Source: Raja brachyura
Taxonomy: Eukaryota
Length of the DNA: 64,000 bases
Direction of reading: 5' to 3'
Assembly: GCA_963514005.1 (NCBI GenBank)
Contig: OY740818.1
Location: forward strand, 19,220,001 to 19,284,000
Positions 46,601 through 61,600 of the stretch are shown here, one piece after another. Position 1 is the stretch's first letter; the number at the start of each line of letters is the position of its first letter. Made by a program: the position numbers.

Positions 46601-49600
46601 TAATTATACATTGGCTTAATGGAGAGTTTAACTGAAATGGAAAAAAAGATGTGACATAGCAAATAGAGATAGCCAAGTGTTACATTAATTGTATGGACTA
46701 CGTTAGGACTCCTTAGGTATAAACTGAAATATTAATATCTAATTTATTGTGCTCACATAAAGTAAATTACTTTGGTTATTTCTGCAACCTTTTATCTGAT
46801 TTTGAACTTTGCTCTTGCCTTTTAAAACAAAGACCAAAGTTCAAATCCTTATGCACTTGTCAAACATGGAGGTGAAAAAGGCTGTGGTTGGCATGGTTTT
46901 CGTTGCAATGATGAGTAGCCAGGGAGTTTCTTTGGGTAAGAAATACAAATGGAGACTGACAGTGGATTGCAAAGCAGTGATTTGGTTGTGATATTCATAT
47001 CATACTGACCTGAATATCTCCTGGTTTAAAATCTAAGACTTGATAGCCGCCATACAGATTGGATTCATGTCTTTCATGTTTTATGTGTTTGTTATTTGTG
47101 GACATGGATTCAGATTTTGCTGTTGAGTGAGGCTGGCAGACAATGTTGAACTTTAGGACATAAAGGATCGCTGAGTATCCAGTACATTTGCGCAGAGGGT
47201 AAAAAATAAGACAAATGCTTGCTGCATTTGCATGGTATCTTTCAAGTTTCTTTTAGAGGATCCCAGAGCACTTAAATACGCAATGAATTGTGGTGACTGC
47301 TGTGAAGTGCAGGCAAAAGTGACTAGTATAAATGGGGCATCTTGGTTGGCATGGACGAATTAAGCTGCAGGGTCTGTTTTTGTGCTGTATGACTCTAAGT
47401 TAGAGACATTGCAGGCTACCTCGAGCAGCAGAGTGATAAAAACTAGATAATCTATTCTAGAAATGTTCTGAACAACGTGCTCTTTTATATTCTTTAAGTT
47501 TATATGCCTGGAATGCTGTGCAAGCAAGACTTTCCACTGTGCCGTACTGAATCTTATGACAATGAACTTGACCTCATCTGAGAGAGCAGACATGTCATGG
47601 TTTAACATCTCATTAACAAGATAGTTCCTTTAACACAATAGCACCTTTCAGTCATGCAATGATGCGCATGCTCCTGTACCTTCTTCCCAATGGTAGTGGT
47701 AAGAAGAGCGTGTGGCCGGGGTGGTGTGGCTCTTTGATGGTATTAGCTACTCTCTTGAAACAGAGCTTCCTGTCGATCCCTTTGATGGTAAGGTCAGCAC
47801 CTGTGATGCACTGGGCAATATCCAATGTGGCCTCCTTCATCCTTGAAGGTTCAAATTTCCAAACCAGTCAGAATTCTTTCCACCGTATAATTGTAAAAGT
47901 TCGATAAACTTTCAGTGACATGCCGATTCTCCTCAAACTTCGGAGGAGGTAGATCTATGGTAAACATTTTTTTGTGTGATTGTATCAATGTGCTGAGCCA
48001 GTTAAGAGTTTTTGAGTCAAAGTTAAGAAATATGCCAAATTAATCCGGCCAAACTTTTGGGGCTGAGGAAAGAGTTGATATTAAGTCATGACTCTTAAAC
48101 ATCTGCACTACACATGTGTACAATACTGTCATTGGTTCGAACATCATTACGACGTGTTATTTACAAGGCAATTGGGCGTAAATTATTTTGGCTTGTGCGA
48201 GGAAAAGACTATGCTTGATTTTCAGCTTAATGTACTTGAATCTTGTTGTCAGATTGCACAAATCCACGTTTAGGACTGAGACAACCTTCCAGTTTAATGA
48301 AGCGCAATGGATGGGAGGAAATAGAACGACTATCAAAAAGAGATGTGACTATTTGCTGTTTGTTTGTTTCACATAAGCTCCAGATCTGAAGATTGATCAA
48401 GCCCTGGTTATTCTGCATAACACCTTGAGCCAGCATAATGTCAGCATCCTCTACCTGTCTGATTACTGCTACAAGGTAAGAGGATGTTAGTCAATACATT
48501 TGACTATCCACAACATTCACTCTTCTAACAACAATAGCGAAAGGCATAGATAATGGTCTGTGAAGTCCATGTGCACTACATTATGTACTTTAGCTACATT
48601 CTTCCAACTGCTCTTTCTACATTTTACTGTGGTTTGCATATGAATACTGATAATTGAAATGTCTATAAGTTAGGTTGGAAGTGACTTCTCACTTAAATCT
48701 TGCTTACACATCTAAATCAATGAAATTGACTGCCCACTAGTGTCAGTAATCATATATTAGAGGCAAGGTGAAACTGTATTTTATATTCATTCAAAACTGT
48801 AGCTGTCTATTTATGCAACATTAAAATTAAAATTACAGCGCAGAGAGAGCCTCTCGTGTTTGATGGGAGTATCAGTCTAACAAGTTGCTGTTAGTGGATG
48901 ATAGTTACACAATAGGTATATTGTGTGCAAAATCATTCCTGGTTGCTTATGGTAGTGTGGTCTCCAGGCATGATCAGTTGTGCAATAGTGGAGCCACTAT
49001 TTATAGCAGAAACATTTTGCATGGGTGGACCTTATGATCCGCTTCTCCTTGTTGGCTCAGGAAACTAGAAAGGAAAAGTCAGCCTTGCTGGCTGTAGTTG
49101 TCCCATGGCTTGAAGGACTTGTACATGACTTGTCAACATTTATCCCAGAAATAAAAGCTTCATGTGCCTCCATTCATCTCAGGGGTGTTTACAGGATATT
49201 GCTGGCAAACGGCAATCACCTCATTATCCGCAGGGCAAACCTATTGTCCATCAAAGAAGATATTTATTTTCTGAGTCACTGTATTGTGTTTCCACATGAA
49301 ATTCAGTGTGTAAAAACACCAAAATAAGAATGTTGAAAGAATAGCATAATAAAAAGCTACTTTTCTTAATTTTACTTCTTCCAAATTTCAAAAAGACATA
49401 TCAGTAATCCCCAAAAGCATCTGTGGACGGAAATGGTCTGAAGAAGGGTCCGAACCTGAAATATGATTTATCCATTTCCCTCCACAGATGCTGCCTGAAC
49501 TGCTGAGTTCCAGTAGTTGTTAATATGACTGCCTATCTCTGGGATTTCTCCCAGGACAATTTAAAGCCCTTGATTTAAAAAATGATAATTTCTGATCATT

Positions 49601-58600: not shown

Positions 58601-61600
58601 TCACTTGACAGGGTATTGAGAACAATAGTTGAGATGTCATCTGTTAGTGAGTCCACAACTAGATTTTTGTGTGGAATTATTGGAATATTTGTGGAATTAT
58701 TGTGGAATATTAGAACATTTCTTTTCAGATAAAAGAGGAGGAATTAGGTTCTTCTTGGCCAGACTTAAGTCATTAAACCATTCTTGCAGCATGCAACAAT
58801 ATTGAGAGAGCAGGCAGACAAATGTGCTGGAGAAACTCAGCGTGTGCAGCAGCATCTATGGAGCGAAGGAAAAAGGCAACGTTTCGGGCCGAAACCCTTG
58901 GGAGAGCAGGCAGTGGAGGAGAGAAATGGGTGACAACATCTTGCTGTCAATGATAACGAGAGGCTGAAGTGTCATTCTGTTGATCATTGTGGACTCTTGA
59001 ACACCAAGGATAATCAGAATATTCTTCTCTTTTAGTGTCTTTATCAGGTTCTCCTGCATGCAGGTACTCAACAAGGAGATAGCCCGACCAATTCCAGTGC
59101 TGTTGTGAGTGTCCTGTTTCCCCTGACATTCCAGATTGTTATTGGAGATGATCATAACCATTCTGTCATCTGCAGGTAAGAGCAAAGTTACCTTTTGCAA
59201 TGTGGCTATTATTTTTAATGTGTGAAACATCCATGAAGTCCATTCTTATCCAACTTCTTCCAGCCATTCCAACTTTCCCCTGATTTTTCTGCTTGTGTCT
59301 TCCTATAAAATGAATTAGTTTGACTTTATGTTTATCTTTCATAATTTCTACAAAATCGTTTCAACTAATTAAAAAACCTTGGAATAGTAATTCAACTGAT
59401 AAACAGCTGAGTCCAAATAACATGAGGCTGTACCAGAAAATCTTTGGAAGAAGATTGATAATAGATGACTCGTGTAGTTGAGAACCTGAGAGCATTGTAA
59501 CGTGTAAAAGTATCTGCAGTACTGCAAAGATCAACTGTAGTCCAGCTGATACAAATAGACTGCCTGAGCTGGGAAACTGAACCAAGCTGAATTTGTGCAG
59601 TTAAACTTTCCATTTCAACTTCTTGTTGGATATCTGCTGTGACAAGACTTGCTGTCTAACATTTTCTAACTTAGTTTCAGAATTCCAGCATTCATGGTTA
59701 TTTGCATTTCTATTGCAGGGAATATAGCATAGTTTTACTCTGAAACTACGTTACTTTCTGCTCAGATTATTTGCATGGTAAAGCTCCCTTTATTCAATCT
59801 TAATAATGCAGATTTAACGTCAGTGTCAAGCAAGCATCAATATTGCACATGAGACGCCTCTAATTCACACCACAACTTCCTAATGACTCCTAAGGGTGCA
59901 ACTGTTCATTTTCTTAACTGTGGCAATTACGAGCAACGGATTTGCATGCAGTTTATAATGGAAACCTCTTATACAAAACTGTAAAATGATCAGTATTTCA
60001 CCAGCAAGGTTAAGATTAAACACCTTGACCAGAGGTGAAAGGCCAGTGCTGATCTTAGTGGCGCAGGGATTTATGTTCATTACACATTACACAGCGCTGA
60101 ACCATTATTCCCAACATTGTAACATTGTTCACTTATTTCATTCCATTCTCAGTACGATCACTTTATCAAAATGCATTTGTAAAGCTGATAATTTATGAAA
60201 TAAGTTACTAAATACTAAATGGGCAGCACGGTGATGTAGCAGTTGATTTGCTGCCTTACAGCACTTACAGCGCCAGCGACCCGGGTTCGATCCCGACTAC
60301 AGGTGCTGTCTGTACGGAGTTTGTACAGTATGTTCTTCCCCTGATCGCATGGATTTTCTCCGAGAGCTTCAGTTTCCACCCACACTCCAAAGCCGTACAT
60401 ATTTGTAGGTTAATTGGCTTGGTATAAATGTAAATTATCCCTAATGTGTGTAGAATAGTATTAATGTGTGGGGATCGCTGGTTGGTTTAGACTCGCTGGG
60501 CTGAAGGGCCTGTTTCCGCGCTGTATGTCTAAACTGAACTAAATACAGCTGCAATCTGGAGAGGAAAGGAAAATAGCTTTCTCTTTGTAAGGATGTAAAT
60601 CCAAGAGCAGACGGGCCTTCTTTCCAATGATCCACAATTTGATACTTTAGAAATGTTAAGTTTATCCCTGAATTTTGCAAATCGTCAACATTTCCACTAG
60701 AATGCTATTTTTTATGGCACGGGAGACTCCTGATCTGAATGAGCACTTTTAAAGCTTGAATCAGACATGGTGCATATGATTGACAGGGAGGAGGAAAGCT
60801 TTAAACTTTGGGAGGATATAAATGATCTGCGCAGTTGGACAAAAAAGTGGCAAATTAAGTTTTCCCTGAAAAATATGAGGTAATGATGTAAGGACAAGGG
60901 AATATAAAATACATCCGGGGATATTGGGAAGGTTGAAGGAATATAAGTACCTTGGAATATATATACATTGACCTGAATGATGGCGTGACAGGTCTATAGG
61001 ATGTTTATAGAGGGATATGGGATGTTTTCCTTTATTAGTTATGGCGTAGAATGTAGTAGCACAGAGGCAAATGCTAGAATTTCGTACAATACTTGTCAGA
61101 CCACATCTTAGTACTACAATTTTGGTCACCACATTACAGGAAGGATGTTTGAACTGGATAGGGTAAGGGATATTTCCAAGTATGTTGGCCGGACTGAAAA
61201 ATTATAGCTATGGGGAAAGATTGGTTAGGGTGGTAAATTTTTCACTCGAACAGAGAAGCTTGAAGGGTGTATAATATTTTATGAGGCCTAAATAAATAGG
61301 AAAGGCCCTTTTGCAAAGATTTGAAATAGTTGACAGAAGAATTAGAAGGGTAATGGATATAGTTTTATTCCCATCCAGATGGTAGTAGAAATGTGGAACT
61401 CACGAGCTGGATGTGAACTTTCAGTCAATAACTCAAGCACGGGAAGGATGGATAGATTTTTTAAATGATCAGCACCGACACTTCACTGGCAATAAAATGG
61501 TATTTCCTACAAAATAATCTTTCAGCCTCTTGCTGCTCCCACTCAAACAGATTAACTTGACACTTTTGTTTTGGCAAAGTCTGCAAAAGGATTGTGCTTC

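What the first reader, a model, noticed from the sequence alone, without database searches (positions are those of the whole stretch)
46866..59175. HGSNAT-like gene largely missed by the ORF track: likely whole-genome-duplication paralog absent from the human locus
Seen: three in-phase exons encoding a signal peptide plus an HGSNAT-type luminal domain (LKIDQAL..HN, NVS sequon, YCYKCLYQ); exons 2 and 3 appear in no listed ORF in the correct frame. Established: human HGSNAT is at 8p11, NUDT13/ECD are at 10q22, and these regions share paralog pairs (KAT6A/KAT6B, VDAC3/VDAC2, PLAT/PLAU, AP3M2/AP3M1). Inference: this is a second, 2R-derived lysosomal transmembrane acetyltransferase retained in this lineage, possibly with different glycosaminoglycan substrate or tissue use, which is relevant in a cartilage-rich animal.
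Basis: partly seen in the sequence, partly recalled or inferred. Interest (0 to 1): 0.72.

Follow-up and report, generated by a model that had tools for sequence, protein, structure and literature searches.

The report
First three exons of an HGSNAT gene
The window holds the start of a real gene for the lysosomal enzyme HGSNAT, lying head-to-head with the gene ECD, but whether it is an extra ancient copy or this animal's only copy could not be tested here.

Summary
Three + strand exons (46866-46935, 48378-48475, 59036-59175) are open, join in phase (1, 0, 2) and have G|gtaaga donors and pyrimidine-rich acceptors. The exon 2 peptide matches only human HGSNAT chains in the PDB (3 of 3 hits, E 0.009-0.011, 13 of 30 identical, residues 76-105 of the luminal domain). 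An N-x-S/T sequon sits in the same column. The exon 2/3 and 3/4 junctions fall at the same residues and phases as the human introns, and intron 1 has the same phase. Exon 3 alone has no detectable match. Exon 1 is a plausible but unverified signal peptide. No exon 4 lies before base 64000, so the transmembrane catalytic domain is unseen. The neighbours are ECD, with 5 exon ORFs matching SGT1, and a NudC/NUDT12-type NUDIX gene.

The claim of a second, duplication-derived paralogue is untested. No vertebrate genome collection was available, and ten literature searches found nothing relevant. The position inside the 10q22-like block is suggestive, not proof. The exons were never joined; every search was made exon by exon. 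Interest is modest.

The parts
46866..46935 (+). Exon 1, coding part. ATG in a good context (AAC ATG G), with a signal-peptide-like N-terminus: MEVKK, then an 11-residue hydrophobic core, then SSQGVSL. It ends in phase 1. A weaker in-frame ATG lies at 46851.
   Evidence: The maximum mean Kyte-Doolittle value over 10 residues is 2.67. No signal-peptide predictor was available. The transcription start and any 5' UTR exon are unknown.
46936..48377 (+). Intron 1 (1442 nt). It holds a transposable-element protein fragment in antisense at 47652-47840.
   Evidence: the fragment is 29 of 58 identical (E 4e-20) to another copy at 1461-1802.
48378..48475 (+). Exon 2 (98 nt, phase 1 to phase 0). It encodes the start of the luminal beta-sandwich domain, with an N-V-S sequon and the YCYK cysteine.
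   Evidence: It aligns to residues 76-105 of the 663-aa human chain (13 of 30 identical, 23 of 30 similar). Its last codon corresponds to human residue 106, which is codon 78 counted from the second ATG. That is the end of human exon 2 (c.234+1 donor).
48476..59035 (+). Intron 2 (10,560 nt), rich in interspersed repeats.
   Evidence: No better in-phase exon candidate lies inside it.
59036..59175 (+). Exon 3 (140 nt, phase 0 to phase 2). It begins and ends with Cys, has two sequons (NSS, NHS), and ends with 2 nt (AG) of a split codon.
   Evidence: It is the best of 7 candidates: acceptor pyrimidines 15 of 20, donor 8 of 9. The human exon 3/4 junction also splits the codon just after a Cys (C123; codon 124 is split 2|1). 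The human exon is 137 nt, this one 140 nt. There is no sequence match on its own.
59176..64000 (+). Start of intron 3. No exon 4 was found before the window ends. A LINE reverse-transcriptase fragment lies at 63199-63603.
   Evidence: no exon 4 candidate with family features. (RVT_1, E 0.0063, below the Pfam cut-off).
42500..43500 (-). Context: ECD exon 1 (ORF 42866-43120, ATG near 43096) inside the only CpG-rich stretch between the two genes. ECD and the HGSNAT-like gene are head-to-head, with about 3.8 kb between their ATGs.
   Evidence: SGT1, profile positions 1-57, E 2.4e-06. (GC 0.55-0.63, CpG observed/expected 0.63-0.78 in the 500-base windows starting at 42500-43000; 0.14-0.25 in the windows starting at 46250-46750, around exon 1 of the HGSNAT-like gene).

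Best explanation
The three exons are the genuine 5' end of an HGSNAT-family gene. [quoted passage not shown]

How it most likely works:
- Exon 1 supplies a short cleavable signal peptide (inferred).
- Exons 2 and 3 encode the first 79 or so residues of the luminal beta-sandwich domain, which is about 110 residues long. That domain precedes the 11 transmembrane helices in the human enzyme. Homology is shown for exon 2 and for the gene structure.
- The rest of the luminal domain and the whole catalytic membrane part lie beyond base 64000.
- By analogy with the human enzyme, the product would bind cytosolic acetyl-CoA in its membrane core. It would then acetylate the terminal glucosamine of heparan sulfate on the luminal side. 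This step is inferred and not testable here.

The gene is transcribed divergently from ECD, inside a block that recalls human 10q22 rather than 8p11. I think it more likely than not that the locus is the 10q22-type copy of an old duplicated segment. Whether the genome also has a canonical copy remains open.
For: - Exon 2 hits only HGSNAT chains in the PDB: 3 of 3 hits, E 0.0088-0.011, query 2-31 against chain residues 76-105.
- The exon 2 sequon N-V-S aligns with N-L-T at 94-96 of the human chain.
- The human luminal domain could be modelled from residue 49 of the 635-aa isoform, which is 77 in the 663-aa numbering. That is exactly where exon 2 starts to align.
- Intron positions match.
  - Human exon 2 ends at c.234, a complete codon 78, or residue 106 after adding 28 (offset). 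Exon 2 in the window ends in phase 0 at the residue aligned to 106.
  - Human exon 4 starts at c.372, the third base of codon 124, just after C123. Exon 3 in the window ends with Cys plus 2 nt.
  - Human exon 2 skipping gives p.D40Vfs, which implies a phase 1 intron 1. The window also has phase 1.
- All three donors and both acceptors (exons 2 and 3) are strong. The exon 3 model is the best of 7 candidates.
- The introns carry transposable-element fragments, so this is not a retrocopy.
- ECD and a NudC-type NUDIX gene are the neighbours.
Against: - Exon 3 alone has no match in the PDB at E up to 10, none in Pfam and none in the Atlas.
- Pfam has no family for exon 2 either. Its only row is ACT_7 at E 0.16, which is noise.
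- Exon 1 is not unique. A second hydrophobic candidate lies at 44769-44868. Exon 1 is not in a CpG island.
- No exon 4 was found in the remaining 4.8 kb. The catalytic domain, the catalytic His and the intactness of the gene are therefore unseen.
- The mapping of the human junctions assumes that both papers count from the second ATG. I recall this, and it is internally consistent, but no call stated it. The closed supplements of PMC11357348 might have settled it.
- There is no expression evidence.
Confidence: 0.85

Rival explanations
1. One reading: this is an extra HGSNAT copy derived from the 2R duplications. It was kept in this lineage beside ECD and NUDT13 and lost in bony vertebrates. A canonical HGSNAT sits elsewhere in the same genome in an 8p11-like setting.
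For: - The gene lies 3.8 kb from ECD and within 35 kb of a NudC-type NUDIX gene.
- By my recollection, these neighbours map to human 10q22, a segment paralogous to 8p11 where human HGSNAT lies.
- A random relocation would rarely land in exactly the paralogous segment. An old duplicate would sit there by default (inference).
- At least one other gene, a TPT/SLC35-like transporter, also lies in this block with no counterpart that I recall in the human interval.
Against: - No second locus was seen or could be looked for.
- No phylogeny was possible.
- None of 10 literature searches found a vertebrate HGSNAT paralogue. A zebrafish study treats hgsnat as an unduplicated gene while excluding gns for its duplication (passages only).
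- The divergence of exon 3 carries no weight, because the luminal domain is poorly conserved in general.
Confidence: 0.35
2. This is the animal's only HGSNAT gene. Either it is the true orthologue of the human gene, with the neighbourhood changed in one lineage. Or it is the one surviving duplicate, where bony vertebrates kept the other (reciprocal loss). In both cases it is the ordinary housekeeping enzyme.
For: - The intron positions and phases, the sequon column and the cysteines are as in the human gene.
- HGSNAT is a single-copy gene in the species for which I saw text.
- Extra retained duplicates are rare for any given gene (background knowledge).
Against: - The neighbourhood is not the human one: ECD and a NUDIX gene (shown by calls), where I recall other flanking genes at the human locus.
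- A simple orthologue would need a relocation that happened to land in the paralogous segment.
Confidence: 0.5
3. This is a partial duplicate or a decaying gene. Only the 5' exons exist here, and no functional protein is made.
For: - No exon 4 was found within 4.8 kb.
- Exon 3 has diverged beyond detection.
- There is no CpG island at exon 1.
Against: - All three exons are open and in phase with consensus splice sites.
- The cysteines and the sequon are kept.
- Intron 2 is 10.6 kb, so an intron 3 longer than 4.8 kb is unremarkable.
Confidence: 0.08
4. These are chance open frames with no gene.
For: Each piece is short: 23, 32 and 46 codons.
Against: - The PDB search with exon 2 returns HGSNAT alone.
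- Two junctions coincide with the human ones to the residue and the phase.
- All splice signals are strong.
Confidence: 0.02

Closest known systems
Human HGSNAT (heparan-alpha-glucosaminide N-acetyltransferase; PDB 8VKJ, 8JKV, 8TU9)
   Same: - The start of the luminal domain: 13 of 30 identical, 23 of 30 similar.
- An N-x-S/T sequon in the same column.
- A Cys just before the exon 3/4 junction.
- Intron phases 1, 0, 2, with two junctions at identical residues.
- A signal peptide followed by a luminal domain.
   Different: - The region before the domain is much shorter: 23 residues plus 2, against about 75 in the 663-aa form.
- Exon 2 is 98 nt. I recall 116 nt in human.
- Exon 3 is one codon longer and not detectably similar.
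- The neighbours are ECD and a NUDIX gene.
- The catalytic part is unseen.
Bacterial, archaeal and plant homologues of the HGSNAT membrane domain (Pfam family accessions recalled: PF07786, PF16401)
   Same: They belong to the same superfamily as the unseen membrane part would.
   Different: According to PMC11357348 (passages), those homologues lack the luminal domain and TM1. The window gene has the luminal domain, so it is of the animal type. No search of prokaryotic genomes was made, because it could not bear on the question.

Membership tests
HGSNAT (animal type) | Sequence similarity of the N-terminal luminal domain | tested here: met
   exon 2 hits only HGSNAT chains, E 0.0088-0.011, chain residues 76-105. 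Exon 3 alone gives no hit.
HGSNAT (animal type) | Gene structure: introns 1-3 in phases 1, 0, 2 at the human positions | tested here: met
   for the window; for human. Junctions 2/3 and 3/4 fall at the same residue. Intron 1 has the same phase but lies 6 codons nearer the domain (the human exon 2 start is partly recalled).
HGSNAT (animal type) | Signal peptide ahead of the luminal domain | tested here: inconclusive
   a basic N-terminus, a hydrophobic core and a small-residue C-region. No predictor was available, and a rival exon 1 candidate exists at 44769-44868.
HGSNAT (animal type) | Remainder of the luminal domain and TM1 (human exons 4-6) | not testable with these tools
   Not found in 59176-64000. 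Presumably beyond the window.
HGSNAT (animal type) | Eleven-helix acetyltransferase domain with the catalytic His (H269) and N258 | not testable with these tools
   Outside the window. Residues named in PMC11357348.
HGSNAT (animal type) | Acetyl-CoA-dependent N-acetylation of terminal glucosamine | not testable with these tools
   Needs an enzyme assay.
Extra 2R-derived paralogue of HGSNAT | A second HGSNAT locus in the same genome | not testable with these tools
Extra 2R-derived paralogue of HGSNAT | Branches outside the clade of canonical jawed-vertebrate HGSNAT genes | not testable with these tools
   No vertebrate protein set was open. Only 79 luminal-domain residues (101 coding residues in all) are known.
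Extra 2R-derived paralogue of HGSNAT | Lies in the segment paralogous to the canonical locus (10q22-type neighbours) | tested here: inconclusive
   ECD is shown: SGT1 on 5 of the 6 candidate ECD ORFs scanned (the presumed last exon, 24267-24503, gave nothing). The NUDIX gene is of the NudC/NUDT12/NUDT13 type, but NUDT13 itself is not shown. The human map positions and the paralogy of the segments are recalled, not tested.

The most novel reading that the evidence does not exclude
An ancient duplicate of HGSNAT, dating from the vertebrate whole-genome duplications, survives in this (probably cartilaginous-fish) lineage. It has kept its ancestral head-to-head position with ECD, while bony vertebrates lost it. 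The animal would then have two transmembrane acetyltransferases of this type. The second could act on another glycosaminoglycan, in another compartment or in another tissue.
Probability: 0.35. Interest if true: 0.5.

Novelty: new member of a known kind. Interest (0 to 1): 0.3.

Why it matters
HGSNAT has no known paralogue in humans. Its loss causes Sanfilippo syndrome type C.

A second, anciently diverged copy in another vertebrate would be a natural experiment on what the enzyme's luminal domain and membrane core can tolerate. It would also add one more case of a duplicate kept in cartilaginous fishes and lost in bony vertebrates.

If it is simply the animal's only HGSNAT, the finding is ordinary gene annotation. 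Its one small point of interest is that the ECD-HGSNAT adjacency may be the arrangement from before the duplications.

Tried and rejected
- **Pfam on exons 2 and 3.** No family. ACT_7 at E 0.16 is noise.
- **PDB on exon 3.** 0 hits at E up to 10.
- **Atlas on exon 3.** No usable hit.
- **AlphaFold2 on exon 3 alone.** Mean pLDDT 52.5, pTM 0.21. The two helices predicted at that confidence mean nothing, so no fold search was made.
- **Search for exon 4 in 59176-64000.**
  - Stop-to-stop ORFs were listed.
  - The search for an acceptor followed by an open frame gave 8 candidates. Two are clearly repeat-derived, and none has family features.
  - Four loose motifs gave 0 matches.
- **Antisense ORFs over exons 2 and 3 and other ORFs around the locus.** 10 ORFs were scanned. 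None gave a match above its cut-off, apart from a weak reverse-transcriptase fragment.
- **PDB on an ECD exon.** 0 hits.
- **Rfam on the whole window.** 0 families.
  - looked for a paralogue, for shark data or for co-listing with neighbouring genes.
  - They found nothing relevant. Those listings were judged from titles and abstracts only.
  - The two hits look like cell-line or primer names, judged from the titles.
- **Not tried.**
  - The prokaryotic genome collection, which cannot answer a vertebrate question.
  - Complex prediction, because no binding claim is made.
  - The joined three-exon protein was deliberately never built, searched or folded.
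Full report
**What is in the sequence**

- Exon 1 (46866-46935, 70 nt) gives MEVKKAVVGMVFVAMMSSQGVSL plus one base.
- Exon 2 (48378-48475, 98 nt) gives two bases plus PDLKIDQALVILHNTLSQHNVSILYLSDYCYK.
- Exon 3 (59036-59175, 140 nt) gives CLYQ...HNHSVIC plus AG.

The phases fit (1, 0, 2). The donors are TGG|gtaaga, AAG|gtaaga and CAG|gtaaga, and the acceptors follow pyrimidine tracts.

The default start-codon ORF list shows only a 21-aa ORF in the exon 2 frame and a 24-aa ORF in the exon 3 frame. 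Antisense ORFs of 69 and 124 aa lie over them. Those antisense ORFs match no Pfam family.

**Is it HGSNAT?**

I never joined the exons, so no search, alignment or fold of the spliced protein was made.

Exon 2 alone finds only heparan-alpha-glucosaminide N-acetyltransferase chains among 177,635 distinct PDB sequences.
- There are 3 of 3 hits, E 0.0088-0.011.
- Query residues 2-31 align without gaps to 76-105 of the 663-residue chain, with 13 of 30 identical and 23 of 30 similar.
- The sequon N-V-S falls on the N-L-T of the human chain in that alignment.

In the passages I read of PMC11357348, the human protein has a signal peptide, a luminal beta-sandwich of about 110 residues and 11 membrane helices. 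The model begins after residue 48 of the 635-residue isoform. Adding the 28 residues of the longer isoform gives residue 77. That is just where exon 2 begins to align.

Exon 3 alone finds nothing:
- PDB at E up to 10;
- Pfam;
- Atlas.

A single-sequence AlphaFold2 model of exon 3 had pLDDT 52.5 and was discarded.

**Gene structure**

Passages of PMC4279800 place the donor of human exon 2 at c.234+1. The acceptor of exon 4 is at c.372-2. Loss of the first 12 bases of exon 4 gives p.L125_R128del.

Human exon 2 therefore ends with a complete codon 78, which is residue 106 in the long numbering. Human exon 4 begins with the third base of codon 124, directly after C123 (named).

In the window, exon 2 ends in phase 0 at the residue that lines up with 106. 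Exon 3 ends with Cys plus two bases. Both junctions thus coincide in residue and phase. The exon 3 lengths are 137 nt in human and 140 nt here.

PMC3535201 (passages) gives p.D40Vfs for skipping of exon 2. Together with my recollection that human exon 3 starts with a Cys codon, this implies a phase 1 intron 1. The window has the same phase.

One caveat applies. I assume that both papers count from the second ATG. I recall that they do, and the fit supports it, but no call states it. The closed supplements of the eLife paper might have settled it.

**How specific are the exon models?**
- Downstream of exon 2 (48476-63990), 7 segments meet these criteria: phase 0 start, phase 2 end, length 90-199 nt, and usable splice signals.
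  - 59036-59175 has the best signals, with 15 of 20 pyrimidines and a donor matching 8 of 9.
  - It alone starts and ends with Cys.
- For exon 1, 10 candidates running from an ATG to a phase 1 donor lie between ECD and exon 2.
The first two carry the full hydrophobic core; the third does not.
  - The only other hydrophobic candidate is 44769-44868.
  - Exon 1 is therefore plausible, with a good ATG context and the shape of a signal peptide, but it is not proven.
  - It is not in a CpG island. The only CpG-rich stretch (42500-43500) covers ECD exon 1.
- No exon 4 turned up in the last 4.8 kb. The rest of the luminal domain and the whole catalytic part are unseen.

**Surroundings**
- On the - strand, five ORFs match Pfam SGT1 in profile order. 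They are 42866-43120, 40413-40643, 38170-38406, 27595-27936 and 26610-26888, with E from 2.4e-06 to 1e-28. This is ECD. Its first exon lies 3.8 kb from exon 1 of the HGSNAT-like gene, head-to-head.
- On the + strand, the ORF at 11072-11452 has a NUDIX box (E 9.2e-06). Its core (11171-11395) matches NAD(+) diphosphatase and NUDT12/NudC chains (E 1.1e-11 to 3.4e-06, 6 hits). This fits NUDT13 but does not single it out.
- Introns 1 and 3 carry transposable-element fragments, so the gene is not a retrocopy.
- I do not take the window for human. Its exon 2 is only 43% identical to the human chain.

Human HGSNAT at 8p11, NUDT13 and ECD at 10q22, and the paralogy of these two segments all agree with what I recall. 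No call tested them.

If they are right, the position of this gene carries information. A random relocation would seldom land in exactly the paralogous segment, whereas an old duplicate would be there by default. That is why I lean towards the locus being the 10q22-type copy.

This does not show that a second, canonical copy exists. The same position is expected if this lineage kept only this copy.

The tests that would decide are a search of the same genome, a tree and cross-species synteny. All need vertebrate genome or protein collections, and none was open here.

Ten literature searches were made. bore on this question; two searches served the structure and the splice sites. They gave no vertebrate HGSNAT paralogue and no shark data. 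A zebrafish preprint (passages) treats hgsnat as an ordinary single gene, 54.1% identical to human, while setting gns aside because of its duplication in teleosts.

**Verdict**

The identification as an HGSNAT-family gene next to ECD is well supported (0.85).

The claim of an extra 2R-derived paralogue is open. I put it near 0.35, the sole-copy view near 0.5, and a truncated or decaying gene near 0.08.

This is a member of a known family, and interest is modest unless the second copy is shown.

Noticed in passing
window 16238-22500, + strand (ORFs 16238-16615, 18991-19299, 21922-22500): Multi-pass membrane protein ORFs lie between the NUDIX gene and ECD. The Atlas places residues 20-192 of the last ORF among TPT/nucleotide-sugar-transporter (SLC35-like) clusters, score 0.96. 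Pfam and PDB give nothing. I recall no gene between NUDT13 and ECD in human, so this may be a second gene absent from the human interval.
   Followed up: partly
window 42500-43500 and 43161-43208: A CpG-rich stretch over ECD exon 1 has GC up to 0.63. It holds a (TCCCCC)x8 microsatellite. It could serve as a shared bidirectional promoter if the HGSNAT-like gene has an upstream non-coding exon.
   Followed up: no
window 47652-47840 (-) and 1461-1802 (-): Two copies of a transposable-element protein tail share 29 of 58 residues, E 4e-20. One copy lies in antisense inside intron 1.
   Followed up: partly
window 58826-58863 and 14962-14999, + strand: A 38-base core of an interspersed repeat occurs twice within 3 mismatches; 0 are expected by chance. 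More diverged copies show up as similar peptides in many ORFs. One copy ends about 170 bases before exon 3.
   Followed up: partly
window 63199-63603, + strand: A LINE-type reverse-transcriptase fragment lies in intron 3 (RVT_1, E 0.0063, below the Pfam cut-off).
   Followed up: no
window 41413-41513: A 37-base tandem repeat has 2.7 copies with 95% matches. It lies inside an ECD intron.
   Followed up: no
window 59048: A second possible acceptor lies 12 bases inside exon 3 (tttatcag|GTT). It is in frame and would drop the first four residues. It may be an alternative splice site.
   Followed up: no
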